DNA from: a virus
Taxonomy: Duplodnaviria; Caudoviricetes
DNA length: 25,010 nt
Virus record (IMG/VR): IMGVR_UViG_3300014031_000065
Span: 1 to 25,010 of that record
Direction: 5' to 3' (one strand)
Shown here: piece by piece, positions 4,209 through 20,129 of the stretch
Numbering within the stretch: position 1 is the stretch's first letter
Layout of the letters: every line of letters begins with the position of its first letter
Position numbers and translations under genes: made by a program
Notes under the pieces: model-generated
Database searches by the model: none
The model's input: only the letters and a program-made list of their open reading frames with translations
Told to the model about the DNA's origin: nothing

Positions 4209-4649
4209 ATGGGACTTTCTCTTCGTACTCGCCGCGACAACGCTCGTGGCATCGGCAAGCGTGACGCCAAGGCTTGGCGGTCGCGCCGCTACGTGTCCAC
4301 CGGGATCGGCAACCGCGCCGTCCTCGCGACCGGAACCGGCAACGCGGGCTACGAGGTCTACTCGGAGGTTCCTGGCACCGCTGGCAACTCGATCACCTTC
4401 GCCGTAGTCGTTGCCGGCGCGAACACAGCCGAGTCCGTGACCGCCACCGGCACCGCGCTGACCTACAACGCCGCGACCAACGGCGCCTCCGCTGCGACCT
4501 CCACCGTGCGCGGCATGGTTGAGGCGGTCAACCGCTACAGCCACGCCGAAGGTGCGGTCGTGAAGTTGCACGCGCAGCGGCCGCGCACCAGCGACGGCAC
4601 GTCCGTGATCGCAGCGCTCACCGCAACCGCGCTTGCGGGCGCGGTCTAG
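4209..4649 (+). CDS. Probable virion-associated protein, 146 aa, with Arg-rich N-terminus and Ala/Thr/Gly-rich domain
   Basis: Strong C/G-ending codon bias. The PGTAGNSITFAVV...TSTV..MVEAVN...ATALAG pattern is reminiscent of phage tail-sheath or decoration domains. Confidence 0.75.
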   Translation: MGLSLRTRRDNARGIGKRDAKAWRSRRYVSTGIGNRAVLATGTGNAGYEVYSEVPGTAGNSITFAVVVAGANTAESVTATGTALTYNAATNGASAATSTVRGMVEAVNRYSHAEGAVVKLHAQRPRTSDGTSVIAALTATALAGAV

Positions 4650-4652
4650 ACC

Positions 4653-4661
4653 TGCTAAGCT
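4653..4661 (+). promoter_or_regulatory. Extended -10 promoter (TGCTAAGCT) upstream of mini-tmRNA and RNase P RNA
   Basis: TGnTAnnnT match; the same class of site precedes each RNA array. Confidence 0.5.
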
Positions 4662-4701
4662 TCTTCTTGTCGCACTAGGGCTCGAATACCTACGCGGCAG
4701 A

Positions 4702-4781
4702 GGGGCAGATTCGGTATCGACGGCGACGTAACGCCTCCAAGGGGCACTTGCCGGACGTGGGTTCGAATCCCACCTGCTCCA
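4702..4781 (+). ncRNA. ssrA: Miniature tmRNA: tRNA-like domain only, no tag reading frame
   Basis: 5' GGGGCAGATTCGGTATCGAC and 3' GGAC-GTGGG-TTCGAAT-CCCAC-CTGCTCC-A match the tmRNA termini. G3:U70 and A73 alanine identity; unpaired D-loop; only about 31 nt of hairpin between the halves. Confidence 0.85.
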
Positions 4782-5059
4782 TGTTGTCACTGGACTACGG
4801 CTGCCGAAGCAGGTAGAGGAAGTTCAGGCCACTCCGGTTGGGGCCAACCCTTCCAGAGATACTGAGCCGTGTTGAGGGAGCCCCGAAGGGTCTTTTGAAC
4901 CTCAGCGGGTAAGCGGAGTGTGACCTCAGAATAGATGCCCGAAGCGCAAGCCGGGGCAGTCAAGGTTGAGGGCGGCGGGAAGCTCGCAAGGGTCCGCCAC
5001 GCGCAAGCGTGAGAAAGATCGTAGTCTGCAAAACAGAATCCTGGCTACATGTGACAACA
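4782..5059 (+). ncRNA. rnpB: RNase P RNA, compact form
   Basis: P1 TGTTGTCAC/GTGACAACA; P2 GGACTACGG/TCGTAGTCT; P3; CR-I GAGGAAGTTCAGG pairs with CR-V ACAGAATCCTGGCTAC (P4, bulged U); P5 CACTCC/GGAGTG; P15 with AATAG and GGT; GNRA-capped P18; CR-IV AGAAAGAT. Confidence 0.88.
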
Positions 5060-5064
5060 AGATG

Positions 5065-5073
5065 TGCTAGAGT
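5065..5073 (+). promoter_or_regulatory. Extended -10 promoter (TGCTAGAGT) for tRNA array 1
   Basis: TGnTAnnnT match about 45 nt before the first tRNA. Confidence 0.55.
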
Positions 5074-5116
5074 TATCGGAACGCGCCGGTAGGGTCAAAC
5101 CGAGCCGGCGCTCCAA

Positions 5117-5187
5117 GGGGGACTCGTTCAACGGAAGGACGTGAAGCTTGCACCTTCAAGATCAGAGTTCGATTCTCTGGTTCTCCA
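5117..5187 (+). tRNA. tRNA-Ala(TGC)
   Basis: Cloverleaf, G3:U70, loop CT TGC AC. Confidence 0.92.
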
Positions 5188-5197
5188 TGCAGTACAC

Positions 5198-5271
5198 GCT
5201 GGATTAGCTCAGTTGGTTAGAGCGCCGCTCTGATAAGGCGGAGGTCCAAGGTTCAAGTCCTTGATCCAGTA
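5198..5271 (+). tRNA. tRNA-Ile(GAT)
   Basis: Canonical cloverleaf, loop CT GAT AA. Confidence 0.95.
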
Positions 5272-5274
5272 TGA

Positions 5275-5347
5275 AGTCCTTTAGCTCAGTTGGTAGAGCG
5301 CCTTTCCTACAAAAAGGAGGCCCAGGGTTCGAGCCCCTGAGGGACTA
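5275..5347 (+). tRNA. tRNA-Val(TAC), C33
   Basis: Cloverleaf, loop CC TAC AA. Confidence 0.9.
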
Positions 5348-5351
5348 CTTC

Positions 5352-5423
5352 GGGCCGCTAGCTCAGCGGGAGAGTGCCTAGTCGACAACTAGGAAGCCGC
5401 AAGTTCGATCCTTGCGCGGCCCA
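5352..5423 (+). tRNA. tRNA-Val(GAC), C33
   Basis: Cloverleaf, loop TC GAC AA. Confidence 0.9.
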
Positions 5424-5425
5424 TT

Positions 5426-5492
5426 GCCTGTGAGGTGTATGAGCACGCCAGCCCGAAAGGTTGGAGGCCGGGGTAGAGTCCCCGCACAGGTA
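5426..5492 (+). tRNA. Atypical tRNA-like element (nominal GAA anticodon)
   Basis: All four stems pair, but the D-loop is ATGA, the T-loop is TAGAGT and the anticodon loop is CCGAAAG. Confidence 0.55.
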
Positions 5493-5496
5493 ACAT

Positions 5497-5569
5497 GCAA
5501 CAGTAGCTCAGTTGGTAGAGCGTCACCTTGCCAAGGTGAATGTCGCGAGTTCGAATCTCGTCTGTTGCT
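5497..5569 (+). tRNA. tRNA-Gly(GCC)
   Basis: Canonical cloverleaf, U73. Confidence 0.95.
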
Positions 5570-5572
5570 TAC

Positions 5573-5643
5573 GCCTCCAAAGCTTTATGGATGAGCACCA
5601 GGTTCTTACCCTGGGGAACTACGTTCGATTCGTAGTGGGGGTA
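5573..5643 (+). tRNA. tRNA-Lys(CTT)
   Basis: Cloverleaf, loop TT CTT AC. Confidence 0.88.
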
Positions 5644-5647
5644 CTGC

Positions 5648-5720
5648 AGGAGCGTAGCTCAGAGGCCAGAGCAGCGGGCTTTTACCCCGATGTGCGTGAG
5701 TTCGACTCTCACCGCTCCCA
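5648..5720 (+). tRNA. tRNA-Lys(TTT)
   Basis: Cloverleaf, loop CT TTT AC; A1-C72 and G27-A43 mismatches. Confidence 0.85.
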
Positions 5721-5723
5721 TAC

Positions 5724-5796
5724 GCTGACGAAGCTCATTTGGTAGAGTTCTCCCCTGGTACGGGAGCGGTTGCGAGTTCGAATCTCGTCGTCAGCT
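5724..5796 (+). tRNA. tRNA-Thr(GGT)
   Basis: Cloverleaf, loop CT GGT AC. Confidence 0.9.
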
Positions 5797-5799
5797 TAC

Positions 5800-5871
5800 T
5801 GCGGAATGGGGTAATGGCAGCCTGCCGGCCTTTGAAGCCGGACGATCTAGGTTCGAGTCCTAGTTCCGCAG
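5800..5871 (+). tRNA. tRNA-Gln(TTG)
   Basis: U1-A72, G73, loop CT TTG AA. Confidence 0.92.
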
Positions 5872-5875
5872 CTTC

Positions 5876-5947
5876 GCACCTAAAGCATTGATGGCGATGC
5901 ACGGCTCTTGTAAAGCTGAGAACAGAGTTCGATTCTCTGTGGGTGCT
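5876..5947 (+). tRNA. tRNA-Thr(TGT)
   Basis: Cloverleaf, loop CT TGT AA. Confidence 0.9.
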
Positions 5948-5950
5948 TGT

Positions 5951-6017
5951 GCCGGATCGTCTGGGACGACCCGTCCTTCGTACGGACGGTAGCTGAGTTC
6001 AATTCTCAGATTCGGCT
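5951..6017 (+). tRNA. tRNA-Thr(CGT) with miniature D-arm
   Basis: Acceptor, anticodon and T arms intact; D-arm CGTC-TGG-GACG. Confidence 0.75.
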
Positions 6018-6020
6018 TAC

Positions 6021-6092
6021 GCGAGAGTGGTGTCAATGGCAGCACAAGACCCTTCCAAGGTTTTGGTGCCGGTTCGAGTCCGGTCTCTCGCT
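6021..6092 (+). tRNA. tRNA-Gly(TCC)
   Basis: Canonical cloverleaf, U73. Confidence 0.93.
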
Positions 6093-6164
6093 TACAGTCA
6101 GACGCAAAGGCGTCTTCGCAGGACCGGGTTGAGCGCCGGCGGCTCCGGTAATCAGTCCGGGCTA

Positions 6165-6237
6165 GGTACTGTAACTCAGCCGGTAGAGTGGCGCTCTGAA
6201 AAGGCGCAGGTCGAGGGTTCGAGCCCCTCCGGTACCA
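6165..6237 (+). tRNA. tRNA-Phe(GAA)
   Basis: Canonical cloverleaf, loop CT GAA AA. Confidence 0.95.
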
Positions 6238-6243
6238 CTGTCG

Positions 6244-6296
6244 AGAAATCCCGACTTGCACCCATTCCGGAGGCAATGTCGGGATTTTCGTCGTTC
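6244..6296. terminator. Hairpin terminator between tRNA array 1 and convergent genes
   Basis: GAGAAATCCCGAC...GTCGGGATTTTC followed by GTCGTT. Confidence 0.65.
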
Positions 6297-6478
6297 TAGG
6301 CTTGGTCGCCTTCCCAAAGCTTCGGAGCGCGCTCTGGGTTGGGCTGTAGCTGCTCCGTGAGCGCAACGAACCGCTCAACCTCCTTCTGGAAGAGCGCCTG
6401 CTGCCTCGCCCGCTCTGCTGGCGACGGCTCGTAGGTGCGTCCGGGGATCAAGTCCCACATGGGGTAGTCCTCAGGCAT
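6296..6478 (-). CDS. Hypothetical protein, 60 aa (MPEDYPMWDL...)
   Basis: ATG 6478 after GGGAGAGGG; overlaps the end of the phosphoesterase gene. Confidence 0.65.
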   Translation of the reverse strand: MPEDYPMWDLIPGRTYEPSPAERARQQALFQKEVERFVALTEQLQPNPERAPKLWEGDQA

Positions 6479-7136
6479 TTCCCTCTCCCTTCGCTTGGTG
6501 AAACTCCTTGCGCGACCGGGCATCCTCGATCTGCGCCTCCGTGGTCTGCGGGTACTCCCCCAGCAACACAGCGTCGAGTAGCAGCTTGAGGTTGACGGGC
6601 CGGTACTTGGTCTGCTCGACCGACAGGTTCACGTGCTGCGCGATGAACGGCACCCACGCCTCGCGGCTGTAGCCGTTGTTGTGGATATGCCCATGAAGGC
6701 GGAGGTCGTAGCCCTGCATCGCGCCGTCTTCCTCTGGATTCCAGGGGTAGTGGGAAAAGCTGACGACGTACGGCCGCCTGCCGTGCATCGCACCCTTGTA
6801 AAGCACCGAGAACGGGCTCACGATGTTGAAGCCAGACTGCTTGTAGAAGCTGAATCGCTGGTTGTCGTGGTTGCCCCGGATGAGTAGCTTGCGCTCACCT
6901 GTCAGTTCCTTAGCGATTAGGTGCTTGAATCGCGCGTTACTGCGGTAGCACACGTCGCCAAGGTGGATCAAGGTGGCGTCATCCGGGACCTCCTTGCGCC
7001 ACTCAGCGATCATCACCTGCTCGTGATCCTCCGGGCGGTGGCAGAAGCCAATAATGTTATCATGGCCGTAATGAGTGTCGCTGGTGACCCAAGTGTTCGC
7101 GGGGTCGATATCGTCCCGGAACTTCACGGGCTTCAT
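6471..7136 (-). CDS. Calcineurin-like metallophosphoesterase
   Basis: Motifs SDTHYGH, HLGD, RGNHD, SHYP, HGHIH. Confidence 0.92.
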   Translation of the reverse strand: MKPVKFRDDIDPANTWVTSDTHYGHDNIIGFCHRPEDHEQVMIAEWRKEVPDDATLIHLGDVCYRSNARFKHLIAKELTGERKLLIRGNHDNQRFSFYKQSGFNIVSPFSVLYKGAMHGRRPYVVSFSHYPWNPEEDGAMQGYDLRLHGHIHNNGYSREAWVPFIAQHVNLSVEQTKYRPVNLKLLLDAVLLGEYPQTTEAQIEDARSRKEFHQAKGEGNA

Positions 7137-7381
7137 CGCTCAATCACCTGCAGCTGGAAGCGGTGGAACCATTCGTTGCGCCGCTCGTCTCCGGGCGCGA
7201 TGTACGAGACCTTGAAGTAGTCCCTGCCGCGCCGGAAGTCCGCCATTTGCAGCACAACACCCTCTCGGCCGTTGTTGAACGTGTACTCGGCATGCGTGGT
7301 CCTGTCGATGTGCGGCGACGTACGGACGATTACGACCTTTGATCCGACCTGCGGATCGGGAAACATCTGTGAGTCTCGCAT
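7133..7381 (-). CDS. Hypothetical protein, 82 aa
   Basis: AGGAGG RBS; ATGA overlap with the phosphoesterase. Confidence 0.8.
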   Translation of the reverse strand: MRDSQMFPDPQVGSKVVIVRTSPHIDRTTHAEYTFNNGREGVVLQMADFRRGRDYFKVSYIAPGDERRNEWFHRFQLQVIER

Positions 7382-7494
7382 ATGACCTCCTGCGCGTATC
7401 AGTCGCGCCAGTTCGAGCGAAACAGGAGCGTTTCGCCCTAGTATCGTACCACTTTGGGCCGTTTGGCGCTTACGGGCATAGGATTGTAGGGGAA

Positions 7495-7674
7495 ATGACC
7501 AACGTAACCTGCGACGACTGCCCCTTCAAGCTAGCCTGCCCGTACAAAGCGGCCAGTAAGCGTCGCTGCCGGGTAGGGGGTGCATCCGACTGCGTACTAC
7601 AGCGTTTCGTGGGCGGCGCTCATGCTGCTTTCACTTCTGGTATAGTCCTAAAACGCGCTGTCGCGCATTGGTGA
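7495..7674 (+). CDS. Small Cys-rich protein, 59 aa (MTNVTCDDCPFKLACPY...)
   Basis: TAGGAT -10-like box and AGGGG upstream; CxxC plus three more Cys; the 3' end runs into tRNA-Tyr. Confidence 0.45.
   Translation: MTNVTCDDCPFKLACPYKAASKRRCRVGGASDCVLQRFVGGAHAAFTSGIVLKRAVAHW
7638..7646 (+). promoter_or_regulatory. Extended -10 promoter (TGGTATAGT) for tRNA array 2
   Basis: TGnTATAnT, 10 nt before tRNA-Tyr. Confidence 0.65.
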
Positions 7675-7734
7675 GCAACGGGGACTGTAAATCCCTGACC
7701 TCTGGTCTTGCAGGTTCGACTCCTGACGGCAGCA
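7657..7734 (+). tRNA. tRNA-Tyr(GTA), irregular D-arm
   Basis: Loop CT GTA AA, variable arm GACC-TCT-GGTC, A73. Confidence 0.82.
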
Positions 7735-7737
7735 TAC

Positions 7738-7822
7738 GGAAGGTGAGCCTCGCATCGGTGCGGGGACCGGATTCGAAACCCGGTGGACTACCAAGTCAGG
7801 CGTTCGAATCGTCCTCCTTCCT
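7738..7822 (+). tRNA. tRNA-Ser(CGA), 8/4 fold
   Basis: Loop TT CGA AA, long variable arm, 8-position acceptor with one U-U, 4-bp T-stem. Confidence 0.75.
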
Positions 7823-7903
7823 TACGATTCGCTTGCTAAGTCCAGCCGGGAACCTCTGCGGAGGCCGAGCGCGTCAGTCCCGTCGCGGGTAAGCGGGGCA
7901 CAA

Positions 7904-7975
7904 GTCACGTTGACCGAGCAGGCAAGGTAGAGGGCTGCAACCCCTCGCACACTGGTTCGAATCCAGTACGTGACT
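7904..7975 (+). tRNA. tRNA-Cys(GCA)
   Basis: Cloverleaf, U73, loop CT GCA AC. Confidence 0.92.
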
Positions 7976-7978
7976 TAC

Positions 7979-8063
7979 GGATGGTGAAGTCGCAAGGCGC
8001 GGCGCTCGCCTGCTAAGCGAAGCGGGCCTTCACGGGTCTGGATTTCGAGTATCCCGCCATCCG
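7979..8063 (+). tRNA. tRNA-Ser(GCT), 8/4 fold
   Basis: Acceptor GGATGGTG/CGCCATCC, T-stem GGAT/ATCC, G73. Confidence 0.82.
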
Positions 8064-8067
8064 CTTC

Positions 8068-8150
8068 GGAGAGTGAACCCGCAGGGCGTGGGGTACGACT
8101 GGAAATCGCTACGGGGTTACGGCCTTGGGCTTCGATTGCTCCGCTCTCCG
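8068..8150 (+). tRNA. tRNA-Ser(GGA), 8/4 fold
   Basis: Acceptor GGAGAGTG/CGCTCTCC, T-stem GGGC/GCTC, G73. Confidence 0.82.
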
Positions 8151-8335
8151 CTTTCGCTGCGCGGCTTCCGCTGCTCGGCAGCGAACCCCTTAGCGAACCC
8201 GTACAGGAAAAACGGCGCTACTGCGAGCACGAACACCGCGATCAAGGCCGCCAACACCCAGTAAAAGGCGATGACGGCCATGACTGCGCCCGTGGCGAGC
8301 GTAATCACGACGAGCAGCGCGAAGATGTCGCCCAT
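8117..8335 (-). CDS. Small membrane protein, 72 aa, two hydrophobic segments
   Basis: ATG 8335 coupled to the cca stop (TGATG); about 45 hydrophobic residues; tail is antisense to tRNA-Ser(GGA). Confidence 0.7.
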   Translation of the reverse strand: MGDIFALLVVITLATGAVMAVIAFYWVLAALIAVFVLAVAPFFLYGFAKGFAAEQRKPRSESGERSNRSPRP

Positions 8336-9861
8336 CAGACGCCACGCAGCGCGGCGTTGAGCTGCCACTCACGGGAGCGCTTCTGCTCAGACGGGTCAAC
8401 GGCGACCTCATCAAGCACGCGCGCGAGCACGCGGCCAACGTCGCGCCCGGTGGCGCCCAGCAACATCACGTCATGGCCGTTGATCGCCAGATCGCCGGCA
8501 GACGCCGGAACCTTAGCGAGCTTAGCCCGCTGGCGCTCGTTTTCCATCTCAGCGATGTTGGTCAGGTACTTGAGGTTGATCGAAGCACCGCCCTTGCCGC
8601 TGAGGTCGCACATCCGGTGCATGTACAGCATCGACAACAGCTCATCGCCCAGCTCAACGCGGGCGCGGCGGACCTTGACCGGGTTGACCTTCTGTAGCGG
8701 GACCATGTGGTTGAGGATCAGCGTGCCAACGGAGTCGCGCATCTTCTTGTCCACGTTCAGGCGCGCGGCAGTAGCGCCCCAGATGCGGGCGCTAACGACC
8801 TCGTGGTCCTCCGGGCGAACCCACTCCCAATCCCGCGCGTCGAGGGTTCCCCGCAGCGCAGCTGCCTCAGCCCCGGTAGGGGCGTAGTAGTGCGTCCGGC
8901 CGTCGGTGCCAGTCCACGCGGAATCCGGCTTGCCGGAGTCGTGGAACAGCAGCGCCATGCGGACTTCCAGCGGCGCGTCAACGTGCGCCGCCGTTTCCAG
9001 CGCCGTGAACGTGTGCTCGTCGGTGGTCATGTCGTGGTAGCGGCTGCCCTGCTCGAAGCCGATCATCGGAGCGAGTTCCGGCAGCAGAGTTTCCAGCACT
9101 CCGGTATCGCGAGCGATCCGCAGAGCGCGGGCAACGTCCTTGCCCATCAGCAGCTTCTTGAGTTCGTCGTAGATCGTCCCGCTCGGGTAGCCGTTCGCGC
9201 TCAGGCCGGTGACGGCGCTGGCGTGCTCGGCCATCTGGTTGAGCGTCACGCCCGCGAGGTCGTAGCCCAGCACGGACACGAACCGGAGTGCGCGGAGGGT
9301 CCGAAGCGGATCATCCCGGAAGCTGTCCGGGTGAGTCGTGCGGATGTAGCCCCGCTCAAGATCAAAGAGGCCCGCCCCGGTCGGATCGAGCACGTACGGA
9401 GGATCGCCGGCGGATTCCTCGCGGAAATCGTCGGTGATCGGCTTGTACAGCGCGTTGAATGTGAAATCGCGGCGCAGGGCGTCGTCGGCCAGCGACAGCA
9501 TCGGGTCAATCTCGATGTGGAAGTCCCGGTGGCCCGGTCCGGTGCTCACGTCGGTACGCGGGAGTACAATCTCGATCACGCCGAGGCCACGTGCGCTTAC
9601 GCGCCAGCCAGCCTGTCGGCCGTCGCGCAGCTTGAGCTTGGTCACGGCGCTGTCCGGGTACTGGTCTCGCGTCAGAAGCAGCCGCAGAGCATCGCCCAGC
9701 TCCCGGAGACCGGCCCGGCGGACCATGTAGTCAGCATCCTTGACCCGGCGACCAAGAAGCTCGTCGCGGACGCTACCGCCGACGCGGTAGACCTCGAAGC
9801 CAATGTCGCGGTGATCCAGTTGACGCATGAAATCGTCTGTGCGGGAGATGTAATCGTTCAT
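8335..9861 (-). CDS. cca: Class II tRNA nucleotidyltransferase (CCA-adding type) with HD domain
   Basis: Motifs VGGSVRD-x-DAD, RRDFTFNA, SFRDDPLRTLRALRF, HDSGKP, C-terminal LAINGHD. ATG 9861 lies 7 nt after TGCTAGGAT. Confidence 0.93.
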   Translation of the reverse strand: MNDYISRTDDFMRQLDHRDIGFEVYRVGGSVRDELLGRRVKDADYMVRRAGLRELGDALRLLLTRDQYPDSAVTKLKLRDGRQAGWRVSARGLGVIEIVLPRTDVSTGPGHRDFHIEIDPMLSLADDALRRDFTFNALYKPITDDFREESAGDPPYVLDPTGAGLFDLERGYIRTTHPDSFRDDPLRTLRALRFVSVLGYDLAGVTLNQMAEHASAVTGLSANGYPSGTIYDELKKLLMGKDVARALRIARDTGVLETLLPELAPMIGFEQGSRYHDMTTDEHTFTALETAAHVDAPLEVRMALLFHDSGKPDSAWTGTDGRTHYYAPTGAEAAALRGTLDARDWEWVRPEDHEVVSARIWGATAARLNVDKKMRDSVGTLILNHMVPLQKVNPVKVRRARVELGDELLSMLYMHRMCDLSGKGGASINLKYLTNIAEMENERQRAKLAKVPASAGDLAINGHDVMLLGATGRDVGRVLARVLDEVAVDPSEQKRSREWQLNAALRGV

Positions 9862-9932
9862 GCCAAGCATCCTAGCAGAAGTGGTACGAAGGCGCAAGGG
9901 CGGGACGACCCGCAACAGCAGGCACGGCAATG

Positions 9933-9941
9933 TGCTAAGGT
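9933..9941 (+). promoter_or_regulatory. Extended -10 promoter (TGCTAAGGT) for tRNA array 3, divergent from the cca promoter
   Basis: TGnTAnnnT, 10 nt before tRNA-Gln. Confidence 0.6.
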
Positions 9942-9951
9942 TCGTTTCTGC

Positions 9952-10023
9952 TGCGGATTGGTGTAACTGGCAACACGCTAGGTTCTGACCCTGGTATTTC
10001 GAGTTCAAATCTTGAATCCGCAT
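9952..10023 (+). tRNA. tRNA-Gln(CTG)
   Basis: U1-A72, loop TT CTG AC. Confidence 0.9.
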
Positions 10024-10026
10024 TAC

Positions 10027-10101
10027 TGATGGTGAGTCGTCCGGGCGACGACGCTCGGCTGTTACCCGAGAAAGAGCAGAGTTCGAGTCTCTGACCATCA
10101 G
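10027..10101 (+). tRNA. tRNA-Asn(GTT)
   Basis: U1-A72, G73, loop CT GTT AC. Confidence 0.85.
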
Positions 10102-10105
10102 CTTT

Positions 10106-10178
10106 CAGTGTATGGCGCAGTTGGTAGCGCGCTCCCCTCGGACGGGAGAGGTCGTAGGTTCAAGTCCTACTACACTGA
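10106..10178 (+). tRNA. tRNA-Pro(CGG), A37
   Basis: C1-G72, A73, loop CT CGG AC. Confidence 0.93.
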
Positions 10179-10183
10179 CTTTC

Positions 10184-10260
10184 GGCGCGGTCCCTGTCTA
10201 ACTGGCTAAGACCTCAGGTTTTCACCCTGAATGATGCGGGTTCGAATCCCGTCCGCGCTT
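10184..10260 (+). tRNA. tRNA-Glu(TTC), with 5-nt acceptor-to-D linker
   Basis: Loop TT TTC AC; TCCCT in place of positions 8-9. Confidence 0.85.
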
Positions 10261-10298
10261 CTACGGAGCCCAAACCATACAAGTAGCGAGGTGTTCGA

Positions 10299-10415
10299 AT
10301 GGCACGAAAGAAGTCCGCAGCGAAGAAGTCCTCACCGAAGTTTGGTTCACCCGCTTGGTTCGCCAAGTACCCTAAGGCGGGTAGGGTTGCCGGGAAGAAA
10401 AAGAAGAAGAAGTAG
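10299..10415 (+). CDS. Lys-rich basic micro-protein, 38 aa (MARKKSAAKKSSPKFGSPAWFAKYPKAGRVAGKKKKKK)
   Basis: Hand translation; GAGGTG Shine-Dalgarno; fills the gap between two tRNA-Glu genes. Confidence 0.7.
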   Translation: MARKKSAAKKSSPKFGSPAWFAKYPKAGRVAGKKKKKK

Positions 10416-10424
10416 GGTCTCTAC

Positions 10425-10499
10425 GCTCCATTCGTCTATCGGTTAGGACGCCGGGTTCTCAACCCGGAAGGACGAGTTCAATTCTCGTATGGAGTACCA
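10425..10499 (+). tRNA. tRNA-Glu(CTC), CCA encoded
   Basis: Cloverleaf, loop TT CTC AA, ends ACCA. Confidence 0.93.
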
Positions 10500-10573
10500 C
10501 AGGGTGTAGCTCAGTTTGGCAGAGTCCTCGGTTTGGAACCGAGTTGTCGTTGGTTCGAATCCAACCATCCTGA
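10500..10573 (+). tRNA. tRNA-Pro(TGG), A37
   Basis: C1-G72, loop TT TGG AA. Confidence 0.93.
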
Positions 10574-10576
10574 TAA

Positions 10577-10658
10577 GCCGACGTGGTGGAACGGTATACA
10601 CACTGGTTTTAGAAACCAGCGCCCCACGGGATTGAGGGTTCGACTCCCTCCGTCGGTA
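10577..10658 (+). tRNA. tRNA-Leu(TAG), A37
   Basis: Long variable arm, A73, loop TT TAG AA. Confidence 0.92.
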
Positions 10659-10662
10659 CTAC

Positions 10663-10735
10663 GCACCACTAGCCCAACGGCAGAGGCATCCGGTTCAAGC
10701 CCGGTAAAGTCAGAGTTCGAATCTCTGGTGGTGTA
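10663..10735 (+). tRNA. tRNA-Leu(CAA) with short variable loop
   Basis: Leu-type D-arm, A73, loop TT CAA GC, 5-nt variable region. Confidence 0.85.
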
Positions 10736-10738
10736 TAC

Positions 10739-10812
10739 ATCCTCGTAGCTCAGTTGGACAGAGCGCTACCCTGCGAAGGTAGAGGTCACTGGTTCAAGTC
10801 CAGTCGGGGATG
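10739..10812 (+). tRNA. tRNA-Arg(GCG)
   Basis: Cloverleaf with A20, loop CT GCG AA, G73. Confidence 0.92.
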
Positions 10813-10816
10813 CTTA

Positions 10817-10890
10817 GGTTATGTAGCTGAGTTGGTTACAGCACCCGGTTGTCAACCGGAAGATCGTGGGTTCGAGTCCCATCATAACCG
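10817..10890 (+). tRNA. tRNA-Asp(GTC)
   Basis: Cloverleaf, G73, loop TT GTC AA. Confidence 0.92.
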
Positions 10891-10970
10891 CTAGGATGGG
10901 CCTAGGGTGAACTGGCCCTGTAAAGGAAGTCAGGAAGTGACCCCGTGACTTCTCCTTAGCGTCCCTACGC

Positions 10971-11038
10971 CTCCTCGGTTGAGGACAACACGCGGGCCTT
11001 CGAAGCCTGCTATTTCGGTTCGACTCCGAACGAGGGGT
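10971..11038 (+). tRNA. tRNA-Arg(TCG) with miniature D-arm
   Basis: Acceptor CTCCTCG/CGAGGGG, loop CT TCG AA, D-arm GTTG-AGGA-CAAC. Confidence 0.72.
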
Positions 11039-11055
11039 TTGCTATAGTTCGTAGC

Positions 11056-11249
11056 ATGAAAACCTGCTCCAAATGCCGTGCCAGCAAGCCTGACGCTGAT
11101 TTTCATTACAAGCCGGTGAACAGGCTGGATTGCTACTGCAAGCCATAAAGAACTGCGAACTGGTTTGCGCTAACTGCCGCCGCGTCAGGACTCAGGAGCG
11201 CCTGACTGCAGCGCGTGATACAGTACAACGACCAAGTGGGGCGCGCTAA
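11056..11249 (+). pseudogene. Decayed HNH endonuclease gene (internal deletion and frameshift)
   Basis: MKTCSKC...DF...LDCYCKP-stop, then in a shifted frame IKNCELVCANCRRVRT (CANCH motif with H to R). TGCTATAGT promoter sits 6 nt before the ATG. Confidence 0.7.
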
Positions 11250-11310
11250 GCGGTCGAGCACCTAGATTGTGAATCTAGTGTTGAACAGGGTTCGAGTCCC
11301 TGGCCTCACC
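11236..11310 (+). tRNA. tRNA-His(GTG), no encoded G-1
   Basis: Acceptor GTGGGGC/GCCTCAC, C73, loop TT GTG AA; base at -1 is A. Confidence 0.82.
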
Positions 11311-11312
11311 CC

Positions 11313-11383
11313 GGAGAATAGGCGACGGTTGCCGGCGAGATTCCAAACCTCGCGTCGAGTGGGTTCGATTCCTACATTCTCCG
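11313..11383 (+). tRNA. tRNA-Trp(CCA), short D-arm
   Basis: G73, loop TT CCA AA. Confidence 0.8.
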
Positions 11384-11388
11384 CTTAC

Positions 11389-11461
11389 GCCAGCGTAGCT
11401 CAGTAGGCAGAGCAGACCCTTCATACGGGCCGTGTCGAAGGTTCGAGTCCTTCCGTTGGCA
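11389..11461 (+). tRNA. tRNA-Met(CAT) elongator (Ile2 not excluded)
   Basis: Cloverleaf, loop TT CAT AC, A73. Confidence 0.85.
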
Positions 11462-11466
11462 CTTTC

Positions 11467-11710: not shown

Positions 11711-12385
11711 CTAGGACTCAAACGTGTGCAGGATTTGTACCGGCGTGTCGTACAAAGTGTACGTTTCATCAACCGCTGATACGTTGTACACGGGCAGCCC
11801 CGACACGCTCGCGGCCCCACGGGCCTCGTGGATGTGGCCGCAGATCGTTACGTCCGGCCGCGCGCGCTCGATGGCGCGGTTGATCGACGCGTCCCCGACG
11901 TACCACCCGCGAGACACGCGGTCGCGGGCGCCGTAGGGCGGCCCATGCGTCACCAGCAGGTCCAGTCCGGCCGGGATTAGCTGCGCCCGGTGCTCTAGCG
12001 CCTCGTCGGAGGCGTAAAAGGCCCAGCGCAGGAGGTTTGGCACCCAAGGAGTGCCCCAGACCCGCAATCCCGCAACCCTAGCCTCGCTATCCTGCAGTAG
12101 AGTCCAGGGGAGGCTCTCGACAATCTCCCGGATGGCGGGCTCCTGCGACTCGCCCACGAAGTCGTGGTTCCCCCAGATCGCGACGACTTCGCAGTCGAGC
12201 GCGTTCAGCCAGTCCCGCAGCGCGTTGTCGCACCACCAAGCCTGCCAGTGAGCGGCCTCGGAGCTGAGGCTCAGGTCCAGGTTGGGGCTGTCCGGGCACA
12301 CATCGCCGGCGATTACCAGAACGTCGCACTCTGGAACGTCCGGGAGGTTGCCGTGGAGGTCAGCGGTGACGGCGACGCGGGGCAT
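11711..12385 (-). CDS. Calcineurin-like metallophosphoesterase (Icc/239FB-like)
   Basis: Motifs ADLHG, AGD, GNHD, THGPP, CGHIHE; ATG 12385 coupled to the upstream TGA. Confidence 0.92.
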   Translation of the reverse strand: MPRVAVTADLHGNLPDVPECDVLVIAGDVCPDSPNLDLSLSSEAAHWQAWWCDNALRDWLNALDCEVVAIWGNHDFVGESQEPAIREIVESLPWTLLQDSEARVAGLRVWGTPWVPNLLRWAFYASDEALEHRAQLIPAGLDLLVTHGPPYGARDRVSRGWYVGDASINRAIERARPDVTICGHIHEARGAASVSGLPVYNVSAVDETYTLYDTPVQILHTFES

Positions 12386-12606
12386 CAGGGAACCCACACG
12401 GCGCCGGAGCGCTTGACCCCGTGCAGCAGGAGCTTGGTAGGGTCGAGCCCCGTACCACGGCGGCCCTGCTCCTGCTCTGCGACCAACGCGTCGATCGCAA
12501 GCTGAATTACGTTGTCCCCGCGCGCGTCGAAGGAGACCACAGTGATTTCTGAGTCGGTCATCGACCTGTGCCCAAACCGCACGTCCCATAGCTGCCCGCG
12601 CCTCAT
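12385..12606 (-). CDS. Hypothetical protein, 73 aa
   Basis: Coupled at both ends (ATGA, TGATG). Confidence 0.7.
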   Translation of the reverse strand: MRRGQLWDVRFGHRSMTDSEITVVSFDARGDNVIQLAIDALVAEQEQGRRGTGLDPTKLLLHGVKRSGAVWVP

Positions 12607-12770
12607 GGTTCCGGGACCTCGTTGAGCGGGACGCCGCACCGCTCGCAGGGCTTGTCAGCCCCGGTCGCGTACTTGTCCTTGAACAGCATAGTCAACATCG
12701 CCTCTTCCTCCGTGAGGCAGGCGATGTGGACGTGCGCCCCTCGGACGATACACCAGCACATCGGACTCAT
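12603..12770 (-). CDS. Small putative Zn-binding protein, 55 aa (...HVHIAC...CERCGVPL...)
   Basis: Hand translation; GAGGGAG RBS; ATGA overlaps on both sides. Confidence 0.7.
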   Translation of the reverse strand: MSPMCWCIVRGAHVHIACLTEEEAMLTMLFKDKYATGADKPCERCGVPLNEVPEP

Positions 12771-13186
12771 GCACTATCTCCCTCGTGTAGATAAACGAAC
12801 TGCGACATGTCGGCCGGCGTATACCACGGCCCCTTCAAGACCTTCCCGTCCTCGCGGTAGACGGGCTTCCCATCCACGCCCAGCTTGCTCATGTTCGAGC
12901 GGTGGGTCTCCGCAAAGGCCCCGTCGATATCAAGAGCGAACGCTACCGCAGTTCCTTCGAGGACGTACCGCAGATCGGCCAGTTCCTTGAGCAACCGGGC
13001 CATCGTGCCGTAAACGGCGTCGGCATCCATCTGCTTCGTGAGCAGCGCCAGCTCGGCCATCACTTCTTCGTACTCTTCACGGATCAGACGCATCCGCAGA
13101 CGTACCGTATCGCCCGCAGGAGGGCACGGAATGGCAGATGGGCAGTCCTGCCCGAACTTGGCGTGAAACTCGCGTACGACGGTCAT
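12767..13186 (-). CDS. MazG-like all-alpha NTP pyrophosphohydrolase (DR2231/PRA-PH type)
   Basis: Motifs VREFHAKF, LIREEYEE, KELADLRYV, HRSNMSK, REDGKVLK. Confidence 0.9.
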   Translation of the reverse strand: MTVVREFHAKFGQDCPSAIPCPPAGDTVRLRMRLIREEYEEVMAELALLTKQMDADAVYGTMARLLKELADLRYVLEGTAVAFALDIDGAFAETHRSNMSKLGVDGKPVYREDGKVLKGPWYTPADMSQFVYLHEGDSA

Positions 13187-17516: not shown

Positions 17517-20129
17517 TTGTCTCATGCACCCTTCGATGCGCCCTTCGCGCACGGAATCTACAAGCAGAAGTACGCCCAGCAGGGTGAAGAGTGGCAGGAC
17601 ACCGCGTTCCGTGTGGTTGAGCACGTCATGGGGGCCGTTGACATGGCCGACACCGTTGAGGCCGGGATTCTGGCGTCCCTGATCGACGCCCGCAAGTTCA
17701 TCCCCGGCGGACGGTACCTCTACGCTTCGGGCCGCGACCTGCATCAGGTCCAGAACTGCCTGCTGCTGCGCGCGGAGGACACGCGCGAGGGATGGTCGCA
17801 GCTCGTCAGCGATTCGACGATGGCGCTGATGACCGGCGCAGGGATCGGGGTCTGGTATGGCGACGTTCGCTGCTCGGGCTCCGTCATCACGCGGACCGGA
17901 GGAACGGCCAGCGGCCCGATCAGCCTGATGAAGATGGTCAACGAGGTTGGCCGCAACGTCATGCAAGGCGGCGCGCGACGCTCCGCTATCTGGGCGGGCC
18001 TCCCTTGGTGGCATCCCGACGTGTTCGAGTTCATTCGGTCGAAGGACTGGTCCCAGGACGTGCGGGCGCTCAAGGAAAAAGACTTCACCTTCCCGGCCGA
18101 CCTCGACATGACGAACATCAGCGTCACGCTCGACAAGGACTTCTTCGACGCGTACAACGATGAGACCTCGTTCGTCAGCGTGCGGAGCACGCTCGATGCG
18201 CCAGATGGCCGCTCGTGGAATGAATGGGCGCGCGAGGTCTACGAGCTAGTCGTGGACAAGATGCTCACGACGGCCGAGCCGGGCTTCTCGGTGGACTACG
18301 ACAACGCGTCCGAGAACCTCAGGAACGCGCCAGTTACGGGCGAAACTCAGGTGCTCACAGATCGCGGATATCGCGCCGTACGCAGCATTGTGGGTAAGCC
18401 AACATCTGTCTGGACTGGAAAGCAGTGGGCCTCCGGCGTAGTGTTCGAGCAAACTAAGGCCGACGCCGAGGTGGTCCGGGTTGAGATTAGCGGGGGCAGG
18501 TTTGTGCGCTGTGATCCGGAACACGAGTTCTTGGTGGAGAGGCGCGTCGTCGGGCAGCCAACAAGTATTGGTCGTGTAGGGGCCGGTGCTCTCGTGGTCG
18601 GCGATACGCTGCATGTGGCGCTGCCCGTGGGTGAGGCGGCGACGGACCAGGACGACTATGAGCTAGGCTATATCTACGGCGACGGATCGTTTGCTAAGGC
18701 GGGAGGTGCTGAGGTTACGTTCTGCACCGACGAATCGAAAGCGTGCGCGGCCTCTTTTGCGGGACACGCCAGCATGAATATGCACGACTCTCGCGGGCAT
18801 ATCCGCGCGTACTACAGTGTCAATCGTCGGTTTGCCGGGCGCAGCAAGGACAAGTTTCCCGATGATGTTGGGTGCCTAAACTCGTTTCTAGCCGGGCTAT
18901 TTGACGCCGATGGCAACTACGAGCTAATCCAGCGGCGGGTCAGGCTATCGTCTAAGCACCGCAGCTTCTTGGCGGGCGCGGCTCGCGCGCTAGAGTCGCT
19001 TGGCATTCTCGCCGGAGTGTCAAAGGCGGGAACGTCAACGTACGGTAAGGCGCAGGGCTGGCAGCTTGTTGTCAACCGCGACTTCAATGATGAGTTTGCG
19101 CGTTTGATTCCCTGCCTGCGTTTGCGGGTTCCTGCCCGCTCCGGGAAGGGATACAGGCCAGCGGCGTTGAAGGTGCTCGCTGTGGCGCCTGATGGTCGCG
19201 AAGACGTTTTCTGCGCTGACGTGGGGGTACCCGAGCACTCATTCGTTGCTGAGGGGGTTGTCCTCTCGAACTGCACAGAAATCACGTCGGAGGACGACTC
19301 CGATGTGTGTAACCTCGGCTCGCTCAACATGGCGGCGTTCACTTCGCTCGAAGAGTTCCGGCAGGCCGTTGACCTTGCCACGCTGTTCCTAGTTGCCGGC
19401 ACGGTCTACTCCGACCTGCCATACGACAAGGTTCACGCGACCCGCGAGAAGAACCGGAGGCTCGGCCTCGGGATCATGGGCGTTCACGAGTGGCTACTCA
19501 AGCGCGGCAAGAAGTACGGCCCGGACGACGAGCTGGCGAAGTGGCTTGAGGTCTACGCCACCTCTACCGAGTATGCGCACAAGTGGGCCGACGCCGTCGG
19601 TGTGAGCCGCCCAATCAAGACGCGGGCGATCGCCCCCAACGGCACTATCGGAATCATCGCGGAAACCACCACTTCGGCCGAGCCGATCTTCGCGTCCGCC
19701 TTCAAGCGCCGCGTACGCAACGCTTCGGCGCAGGGTGACACGGTGCAGTACGAGTACGTCGTGGACCCCACAGCGGCCCGCCTCGTGGCTGACGGTGTTG
19801 ACCCCGCGATCATCGAGGACGCGTATTCGCTCTCCTACGACGTGGAGCGTCGCGTGGCGTTCCAGCATTGGCTACAGCAGTACGTGGATCACGGCATCTC
19901 GTCCACCGTCAACCTGCCGAGGGTCATCGACGACCCGGCCGAGCAGCGCGAGTTCGGGGAGATGTTGATGAAGTACCTTCCGGGACTACGCGGAATCACG
20001 GCGTACCCGGACGGATCACGGGGCGGACAGCCCCTAACAGCGGTCCCGATCGAGTTCGCGCTCGACAAGACCGGAGTGCGCTTCGAAGAGGCCGAGGACC
20101 GCTGCGTGGGCGGTCTCTGCGGCGTATAA
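17517..20129 (+). CDS. nrdJ: Class II (adenosylcobalamin-dependent) ribonucleotide reductase with intein
   Basis: Motifs FIPGGRYL, NC, GGARRSA, EPG, spliced NACTE, VCNLGS, RRLGLG, IAPNGT, VDHGISST, GITAYPDGSR, C-terminal CxxxxC; AGGAGG RBS. Confidence 0.92.
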   Translation: MSHAPFDAPFAHGIYKQKYAQQGEEWQDTAFRVVEHVMGAVDMADTVEAGILASLIDARKFIPGGRYLYASGRDLHQVQNCLLLRAEDTREGWSQLVSDSTMALMTGAGIGVWYGDVRCSGSVITRTGGTASGPISLMKMVNEVGRNVMQGGARRSAIWAGLPWWHPDVFEFIRSKDWSQDVRALKEKDFTFPADLDMTNISVTLDKDFFDAYNDETSFVSVRSTLDAPDGRSWNEWAREVYELVVDKMLTTAEPGFSVDYDNASENLRNAPVTGETQVLTDRGYRAVRSIVGKPTSVWTGKQWASGVVFEQTKADAEVVRVEISGGRFVRCDPEHEFLVERRVVGQPTSIGRVGAGALVVGDTLHVALPVGEAATDQDDYELGYIYGDGSFAKAGGAEVTFCTDESKACAASFAGHASMNMHDSRGHIRAYYSVNRRFAGRSKDKFPDDVGCLNSFLAGLFDADGNYELIQRRVRLSSKHRSFLAGAARALESLGILAGVSKAGTSTYGKAQGWQLVVNRDFNDEFARLIPCLRLRVPARSGKGYRPAALKVLAVAPDGREDVFCADVGVPEHSFVAEGVVLSNCTEITSEDDSDVCNLGSLNMAAFTSLEEFRQAVDLATLFLVAGTVYSDLPYDKVHATREKNRRLGLGIMGVHEWLLKRGKKYGPDDELAKWLEVYATSTEYAHKWADAVGVSRPIKTRAIAPNGTIGIIAETTTSAEPIFASAFKRRVRNASAQGDTVQYEYVVDPTAARLVADGVDPAIIEDAYSLSYDVERRVAFQHWLQQYVDHGISSTVNLPRVIDDPAEQREFGEMLMKYLPGLRGITAYPDGSRGGQPLTAVPIEFALDKTGVRFEEAEDRCVGGLCGV
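18330..19271 (+). mobile_element. 314-aa intein with LAGLIDADG homing endonuclease, Pro at position 1
   Basis: PVTGETQVLT...VVLSN inserted between LRNA and CTEI; blocks LGYIYGDGS and FLAGLFDADG; block F VFC; codon usage differs from the exteins. Confidence 0.92.

What the first reader, a model, noticed from the sequence alone, without database searches (positions are those of the whole stretch)
4702..4781. 80-nt tmRNA with the whole mRNA-like domain missing
Seen: both tmRNA termini in standard, unpermuted order (compare E. coli GGGGCUGAUUCUGGAUUCGAC...GGACGCGGGUUCAACUCCCGCCAGCUCCA), with G3:U70 and A73. Helix 2 (GGCGA/UUGCC) is capped by a short GCCUC/GGGGC hairpin, with no pseudoknots and no tag ORF. 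The clean cap and intact identity elements argue against random decay. Established: the tRNA-like domain binds SmpB and is alanylated; tag-less tmRNA is known from some mitochondria. Inference: it may sequester SmpB, or add Ala to stalled chains without a degradation tag. Either would protect phage proteins when host nucleases cut mRNA or tRNA.
Basis: partly seen in the sequence, partly recalled or inferred. Interest (0 to 1): 0.9.

Follow-up and report, generated by a model that had tools for sequence, protein, structure and literature searches.

The report
Phage tag-less mini-tmRNA beside RNase P
An uncultured soil phage carries a real 80-base gene for only the tRNA-like end of the bacterial ribosome-rescue RNA (tmRNA), a form already known from mycobacteriophage DS6A; here it sits right before a predicted phage RNase P RNA and a tRNA array, and it likely gets loaded with alanine and competes with the host's rescue-and-tag system.

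Summary
Observation confirmed. Window 4702-4781 is an 80-nt tmRNA tRNA-like domain (TLD) with no message part (Rfam RF00023, 61.5 bits). It is not new in kind: mycobacteriophage DS6A carries a 'TLD only' tmRNA, reported to inhibit host tmRNA in E. coli (PMC4131195, PMC11915505). DS6A's copy is also 80 nt, with the same layout and 57/83 identical columns. The family is much larger than the 9 catalogued no-CDS sequences: 93 distinct sequences (92 IMG/VR plus the window), 92/93 with G3-U70, 93/93 with A73, covarying helices. Two of five capsid relatives keep a short TLD near an RNase P-like RNA; none showed full-length tmRNA, but all are fragments. Local additions: a reduced RNase P-like RNA starts one base after the TLD, 27 tRNAs and a tRNA nucleotidyltransferase follow, and related loci carry extra alanine-acceptor RNAs. 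Most likely mechanism (inferred, 55%): an alanylated competitor for SmpB and stalled ribosomes that suppresses host tagging. Protection of phage proteins is untested, and alanine tails can be degrons. The scan has reported both this RNA type and phage RNase P before on other DNA. New member of a known kind.

The parts
4702..4781 (+). TLD-only (tag-less) tmRNA gene, 80 nt, CCA not encoded
   Evidence: RF00023 61.5 bits; own model 69.9 bits; fold
4702..4708 (+). acceptor stem 5' strand (G3 at 4704); pairs 7/7 with 4774-4780; discriminator A at 4781
4709..4720 (+). D-loop with GG and UCGA; with connector GAC 4754-4756 this is the SmpB-binding face (assignment recalled, not tested)
   Evidence: alignment
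4721..4753 (+). helix 2 (6 bp) closed by an A-containing bulge and a 5-bp hairpin (4733-4745) in place of pseudoknots and tag ORF
4757..4773 (+). T-arm, 5 bp plus 7-nt loop
4653..4661 (+). extended -10-like motif (TGnTAnnnT); candidate promoter, weak evidence
   Evidence: motif not enriched in the window, 18 found vs 16.6 expected; the sigma-70 scan found none; a similar motif precedes the RNA cluster in related loci
4667..4701 (+). predicted leader hairpin resembling an acceptor plus T-arm minihelix, ending directly before the TLD
   Evidence: fold -12.6 kcal/mol; no shuffle control
4783..5058 (+). reduced RNase P RNA-like element, one base after the TLD. P1 4783-4790/5051-5058; P2 4793-4799/5020-5026; P4 within 4816-4829/5033-5046; GGU at 4964-4966 (helix names assigned from recalled bacterial structure)
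   Evidence: fold z -2.91; motif positions; 48 of 50 IMG/VR pattern hits pair 5/5 in P4; syntenic homologues hit RF00010 at 56.9 and 31.5 bits, below gathering 100; the window copy itself has no RF00010 hit at E<=10
5117..11462 (+). array of 27 tRNA genes, only 1 with encoded CCA
8335..10098 (-). tRNA nucleotidyltransferase (CCA-adding-like) ORF; the true start is probably later than listed because the listed start overlaps tRNA genes
   Evidence: PF01743, phrog_2244 E 7.7e-49, TIGR02692 120.7 bits, below its cut-off

Best explanation
This is a phage gene for a DS6A-type tmRNA reduced to its tRNA-like domain, which is likely cut from a longer RNA transcript, given CCA, charged with alanine, and would then compete with host tmRNA for SmpB and for stalled ribosomes, adding alanine but no SsrA tag. 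Shown: the gene, its fold, the alanine identity elements, the family and the neighbours. Inferred steps: (1) transcription with the RNase P-like RNA from a promoter near 4653; (2) 5' cut by RNase P (host or phage RNA), 3' cut after A4781, CCA added by the phage or host nucleotidyltransferase; (3) charging by host AlaRS; (4) binding of host SmpB and EF-Tu; (5) entry into non-stop ribosomes and peptidyl transfer, with no resume codon to follow. The net result would be lower host trans-translation tagging during infection. Whether that spares phage proteins is unknown.
For: Identity elements that were not in the search pattern are kept: U70 opposite G3 in 92 of 93 distinct sequences and A73 in 93 of 93. 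Free acceptor, T-stem and helix-2 pairs covary: 56-74 of 74 paired; at the 10 freely varying positions 64-74 against shuffle maxima of 42-54 or less (shuffles ignore relatedness). Same length and layout as the DS6A element, 57/83 columns identical; both score 64-70 bits with an independent model. A DS6A-type RNA is reported to inhibit endogenous tmRNA in E. coli (passages in PMC4131195, and PMC11915505; primary paper not seen). TLD-SmpB makes poly-alanine without mRNA in vitro (passage in PMC3929946). No SmpB gene in the window or in 5 relatives (all fragments), so the host protein is the likely partner. 5 of 5 actinobacterial isolate genomes that carry a TLD also carry a full-length tmRNA. 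A nucleotidyltransferase is present and 26 of 27 tRNAs also lack encoded CCA.
Against: No expression, charging or binding data for this RNA. The UCGAC and GAC motifs were part of the search pattern, so their conservation in the family is built in. In related loci the motif decays while G3-U70 stays: G002's element next to RNase P has lost it (18.2 bits), and the paralogous 'element A' scores 25-36 bits. So SmpB binding may not be the only thing selected. PMC4131195 says inhibition occurs whether or not the RNA is chargeable, so simple titration does not explain the strict alanine identity. The published inhibition comes from expression in E. coli, not infection. The host is unknown.
Confidence: 0.55

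Rival explanations
1. Tag-less rescue factor: Ala-TLD with SmpB accepts the stalled chain and ejects the broken mRNA, possibly in repeated rounds (alanine tail), and another factor frees the ribosome. The benefit is recycling ribosomes with an RNA that has no single-stranded message for host nucleases to cut, not inhibition.
For: Strict G3-U70/A73 conservation although titration needs no charging; poly-alanine synthesis in vitro; tag-less tmRNA kept with SmpB in some mitochondria and plastids; location in a translation-support cluster.
Against: The only reported in vivo effect is inhibition. There is no stop codon for release. 67 of 77 wide-flank IMG/VR loci have no tRNA within the locus.
Confidence: 0.22
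2. Decoy: an abundant tRNA/tmRNA look-alike that absorbs host defence nucleases or sensors that recognise tmRNA or tRNA elbows.
For: Several diverging alanine-acceptor paralogues in related loci suggest diversification. Defence systems with SmpB-like domains are predicted (PMC10542128 passages).
Against: No direct link. A decoy would not obviously need G3-U70 in 92 of 93 sequences.
Confidence: 0.1
3. Processing signal: the TLD serves mainly as an RNase P / 3'-nuclease cut site that releases neighbours (here the RNase P-like RNA; elsewhere parts of head-gene mRNAs).
For: One-base spacer to the RNase P-like RNA in the window, G001, G002, L360 and L364; 20 of 62 distinct IMG/VR loci have a head or connector gene as nearest neighbour (hand count; 85 of 458 neighbour ORFs scanned).
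Against: Any tRNA would serve; plain tRNA-Ala and others precede RNase P-like RNAs in other phages. Does not explain the tmRNA-type D-loop or the alanine identity.
Confidence: 0.09
4. Decayed tmRNA, attachment-site remnant or assembly deletion without function.
For: Pattern hits in bacterial genomes are often false: 72 of 114 overlap an ARAGORN full-length tmRNA call. PMC11915505 mentions internal deletions in some metagenome assemblies.
Against: No upstream 5' end here or in 117 IMG/VR hits; closed cap; covariation; independent related loci with 60, 65, 68 and 80-nt forms; unbroken contig.
Confidence: 0.04

Closest known systems
'TLD only' tmRNA of Mycobacterium phage DS6A (JN698994, locus L349:1979-2058; tmID 11587; Mao et al. 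2009 as cited in PMC4131195 and PMC11915505)
   Same: 80 nt; standard order; G3-U70 and A73; helix 2 with A-rich bulge and short hairpin; no tag; CCA not encoded; 57/83 columns identical; 64.5 vs 69.9 bits.
   Different: DS6A's copy stands between protein genes with no RNA gene annotated nearby. The window's heads a cluster with an RNase P-like RNA, 27 tRNAs and a nucleotidyltransferase, in a phage whose capsid has only about 29% identity to the best cultured matches.
Standard bacterial tmRNA (ssrA, Rfam RF00023)
   Same: Whole tRNA-like domain; score above the gathering threshold.
   Different: 312 consensus positions (pseudoknots, resume codon, tag ORF) replaced by 21 nt, so it cannot add a tag or terminate.
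CDS-less organellar tmRNAs (mitochondrial RF02544; about 65-nt Mallomonadaceae plastid genes, PMC11915505)
   Same: No tag reading frame.
   Different: They replace full tmRNA in the organelle, and the mitochondrial ones are usually permuted. The phage form coexists with a host full-length tmRNA (5 of 5 isolates tested).
RqcH/RqcP alanine tailing (PMC8373112)
   Same: Would also add template-free alanines (works-like only).
   Different: Uses tRNA-Ala and proteins on split 50S subunits; no homology.

Membership tests
DS6A-type TLD-only (standard, no CDS) tmRNA | tmRNA 5' and 3' ends in standard order with a 7-bp acceptor and T-arm | tested here: met
DS6A-type TLD-only (standard, no CDS) tmRNA | Alanine identity: G3-U70, A73 | tested here: met
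DS6A-type TLD-only (standard, no CDS) tmRNA | No pseudoknots or tag ORF; helix 2 capped | tested here: met
   21-nt cap
DS6A-type TLD-only (standard, no CDS) tmRNA | Sequence and structure similarity to DS6A and the family | tested here: met
DS6A-type TLD-only (standard, no CDS) tmRNA | Phage-borne | tested here: met
   portal, prohead protease and HK97 capsid in the window; virus record
DS6A-type TLD-only (standard, no CDS) tmRNA | Expressed, alanylated, binds SmpB, inhibits host tagging | not testable with these tools
   needs the bench
Standard full-length tmRNA | mRNA-like domain with resume codon, tag ORF and pseudoknots | tested here: not met
Permuted two-piece tmRNA (RF04321) | 3' piece precedes 5' piece, which leads into the tag ORF | tested here: not met
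   18.4 bits, E 0.11; the alternative 5' match at 4953 lies inside the RNase P-like element
Canonical tRNA-Ala (RF00005) | D-stem and anticodon arm | tested here: not met
   no ARAGORN call; tmRNA is the best clan match
Bacterial RNase P RNA class A (RF00010), for 4783-5058 | Conserved CR-I/CR-V sequences and P4 pseudoknot with bulged U | tested here: met
   (P4 assignment recalled)
Bacterial RNase P RNA class A (RF00010), for 4783-5058 | Rfam score at gathering level, full specificity domain | tested here: not met
   no hit for the window copy; homologues 31.5 and 56.9 bits of 100
Bacterial RNase P RNA class A (RF00010), for 4783-5058 | Cleaves pre-tRNA leaders | not testable with these tools
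   needs the bench

The most novel reading that the evidence does not exclude
This soil-phage clade runs its own tag-less ribosome-rescue module. A self-matured set of anticodon-less alanine-acceptor RNAs (one to three per locus, from canonical TLD to forms that lost the SmpB motif), processed by a phage RNase P ribozyme and a phage CCA enzyme, would put alanine or alanine tails on stalled chains in place of the host tag: a phage RNA counterpart of Rqc-type tailing and the first natural tag-less trans-translation in bacterial cytoplasm.
Probability: 0.2. Interest if true: 0.75.

Novelty: new member of a known kind. Interest (0 to 1): 0.4.

Why it matters
The type is published from one phage, and the 2025 curated database lists 9 standard no-CDS sequences among 97,179. 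Here one strict pattern gives 92 distinct IMG/VR sequences from 17 of 64 parts of the collection (about 450 stored stretches estimated). About one in ten tmRNA 3' ends in a viral-contig sample are this short form (11-12 of 121). ARAGORN misses the gene, so it goes unannotated even in cultured phages (DS6A and Streptomyces phage pSt2308). If it suppresses or replaces trans-translation, it is a widespread phage RNA that acts on host translation quality control, and a question that can be tested with an 80-nt gene. This locus adds a link to a phage RNA-maturation set.

Tried and rejected
blastn of 4640-5120 and of the element against cultured phages: only T-arm/acceptor fragments, no full match. 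Sequencing runs: no RNA holder listed; this is no evidence either way. A 274-nt contig in run X2 covers 4777-5051 with 6 differences and one gap, but it cannot show expression. Sigma-70 scan: no promoter; the TGnTAnnnT motif is not enriched. Permuted gene and 3'-end-of-full-tmRNA readings: rejected. Idea that the A-rich bulge holds a stop codon acting as a zero-length tag: a stop triplet occurs there in 43 of 61 TLDs against 33 of 78 full-length tmRNAs, but DS6A lacks one and 60-65-nt forms lack the bulge, so it is rejected as general. Conserved partner gene: none among neighbours of 62 distinct loci; the largest cluster covers 11 loci and is head protease/capsid. TLD near RNase P-like RNA is not general: 0 of 117 TLD loci matched the RNase P pattern, and 0 TLDs were found in 42 loci including 30 RNase P loci. 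Related-locus searches with the 146-aa upstream ORF (metagenomes) and the portal (viral contigs) found nothing. The element A pattern gave 4 viral hits: one is G001, one a canonical TLD with the same cap, two look like chance. Host not identified. G004 and G005 showed no TLD, but they are 23% and 13% complete. Mao et al. 2009 is not held. Literature searches with no paper on phage RNase P RNA or on a wide TLD-only family: (open-access library only, judged from listings). Supplements of PMC11915505, which may list the 9 no-CDS sequences, were not opened.

Full report
Observation. The element is there as described. Positions 4702-4781 hold a 7-bp acceptor stem with G3-U70, a 12-nt D-loop, a 6-bp helix 2 closed by a 21-nt cap, the GAC connector, a T-arm and A73. 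Rfam RF00023 matches at 61.5 bits (gathering 47), with 312 model positions replaced by 21 nt. ARAGORN misses it. Folding agrees but is only modestly better than shuffles (z -2.05). CCA is not encoded. One contig covers 4200-5231 without differences or joints, though it may be the source sample.

Controls for false readings. The same kind of pattern often hits the 3' ends of full-length tmRNAs: in GTDB genomes 72 of 114 hits overlap an ARAGORN full-length call (64 of 72 with imperfect acceptors, 8 of 42 with perfect ones). Applied to the window, the test finds no alternative upstream 5' end. Among the 117 accepted IMG/VR hits none had one, although ARAGORN drew a longer gene over 4 of them. The permuted model scores 18.4 bits.

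What it is. The window is a 25-kb fragment (21% complete) of a tailed phage from a soil metagenome, with portal, prohead protease, HK97 capsid, intein-bearing ribonucleotide reductase and a tRNA nucleotidyltransferase. PMC4131195 (passages) lists mycobacteriophage DS6A as 'TLD only' and says a similar molecule, chargeable or not, strongly inhibits tmRNA, perhaps by titrating SmpB. PMC11915505 (parts 1-3 of 5 read) repeats this and counts 9 standard no-CDS sequences. I did not see the primary paper. The DS6A element is 80 nt with the same layout, and 57 of 83 aligned columns are identical. A model built from 12 IMG/VR sequences without the window scores the window 69.9, DS6A 64.5 and an unannotated copy in Streptomyces phage pSt2308 79.4 bits; tRNAs score at most 26.8.

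Family. One pattern gave 120 IMG/VR loci from 17 of 64 parts (about 450 stretches estimated). With the window, 117 of 121 matches closed both stems; I dropped L019, L031, L033 and L047. That leaves 93 distinct sequences of 62-92 nt, mostly 78-80. G3-U70 is present in 92, A73 in 93 and encoded CCA in 33. In 74 representatives below 90% identity the variable pairs covary strongly, e.g. T-stem pair 1 is paired in 74 of 74 with four common pair types against a shuffle mean of 29 (shuffles ignore kinship). In the 75-82-nt class, 52 of 61 have an A-rich internal loop and a short terminal hairpin, more conserved than the same positions in 78 full-length tmRNAs. In a sample of 121 viral tmRNA 3' ends, 12 were classed short: one of these is false by eye and one more was missed; 32 had flanks too short to find a long 5' end. 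Most members are not in tRNA clusters (67 of 77), and 20 of 62 sit next to head genes (hand count). All 5 actinobacterial isolates tested with a TLD also keep a full tmRNA; in one of them (G008) the Rfam search did not list the short copy at the cut-off used.

Close relatives. Of five capsid relatives searched whole (58-79% identity, 13-66% complete), none had a full-length tmRNA above cut-off. G001 has a 60-nt TLD and G003 an 80-nt TLD, both with G3-U70 and followed by an RNase P-like RNA. G002 has a diverged 62-nt G3-U70 RNA without the tmRNA D-loop in that place. G004 and G005 showed nothing. Two metagenome loci with the same layout carry 65 and 68-nt TLDs; their kinship is inferred from layout only. 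G001, L360 and L364 also hold a second G3-U70 RNA with decayed D-loop (25-36 bits), whose cap recurs in a canonical TLD (L502). So the short form is the conserved state, and alanine identity outlasts the SmpB-face motif.

Neighbour. One base after A73 begins a 276-nt element with the terminal helix, conserved regions and P4 pseudoknot of bacterial RNase P RNA and a reduced middle (helix names recalled). Rfam does not detect the window copy but detects two homologues below the gathering score. A pattern scan gave 50 IMG/VR hits, 48 pairing 5/5 in P4, two of those positions being partly fixed by the pattern; most loci visible in the cut output lie among tRNAs. The pairing of TLD and RNase P is clade-specific. 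I found no paper on it. Earlier scan notes report it often and mark the claim 'in doubt', so I do not score the finding on it.

Mechanism. Shown: anatomy, family, context. Inferred: co-transcription, trimming, CCA addition (26 of 27 tRNAs also need it), alanylation, binding of host SmpB (no SmpB gene in six fragments), and competition at non-stop ribosomes. TLD with SmpB mimics a whole tRNA and makes poly-alanine without mRNA in vitro (PMC3929946 passages). I put 0.55 on a charged competitor that lowers host tagging, because that is the one reported in vivo effect. I put 0.22 on tag-less rescue, because strict alanine identity is more than titration needs. Decoy gets 0.10, processing signal 0.09 and junk 0.04. 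Protection of phage proteins is not shown, and alanine tails are degrons in B. subtilis (PMC8373112 passages).

Other papers seen. PMC10542128, PMC11662646 and PMC9004378 were read as passages only; none of those passages describes a TLD-only phage RNA.

Verdict. Real and functional-looking, a new member of a published kind, and seen at least 13 times before by this scan. Its breadth and this locus's company make it worth a bench test. Interest 0.4.

Noticed in passing
window 4783-5058 (+): Reduced RNase P RNA-like element one base after the TLD, missed by Rfam; homologues in G001, G002, G003, L360, L364; 48 of 50 IMG/VR pattern hits keep P4 pairing.
   Followed up: partly
L354:1746-1821 (+), L360:1156-1232 (+), L364:2797-2873 (-): Second anticodon-less G3-U70 RNA ('element A') upstream of the TLD, with decayed D-loop and a conserved cap also seen in a canonical TLD (L502:1486-1563).
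   Followed up: partly
L364:2560-2628 (-): 69-nt tRNA-like RNA with G3-U70 acceptor but a non-alanine loop (ARAGORN: Thr), between the TLD and the RNase P-like RNA; could be a mischarged or decoy RNA.
   Followed up: no
L227:2080-2141 (-) and the 56-nt element just upstream: Two small anticodon-less tRNA-like RNAs before the RNase P-like RNA in G002; that RNA has a long insertion near P3 and altered CR-I/CR-V.
   Followed up: no
window 4667-4701 (+): Leader folding as a minihelix (7-bp stem plus T-arm-like hairpin) between a -10-like motif and the TLD.
   Followed up: partly
window 5117-11462 and 8335-10098 (-): 27 tRNAs by ARAGORN, 26 without encoded CCA, plus a tRNA nucleotidyltransferase on the opposite strand inside the array; Rfam shows further weak tRNA-like hits at 7738-7821 and 10196-10252.
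   Followed up: partly
window 17517-20129 (+): Class II (B12-dependent-like) ribonucleotide reductase with a LAGLIDADG-containing insert, likely an intein, placed between portal and prohead protease genes.
   Followed up: no
window 6471-7136, 11711-12589, 12767-13186 (-): Two metallophosphoesterases and a nucleotide pyrophosphohydrolase flanking the tRNA array.
   Followed up: no
L350:2491-2568 (PV588686.1, Streptomyces phage pSt2308): Unannotated 78-nt TLD-only gene in a cultured phage's tRNA region; a practical test system.
   Followed up: yes
L002, L008, L029, L032, L035 and others: In many phages the TLD gene sits between terminase and portal, or between head protease and capsid genes, on the same strand.
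   Followed up: partly
L247, L261, L268, L283, L289: Short TLD-like elements (62-78 nt) in five Saccharibacteria genome bins; whether prophage, mis-binned or the cells' own was not checked.
   Followed up: no
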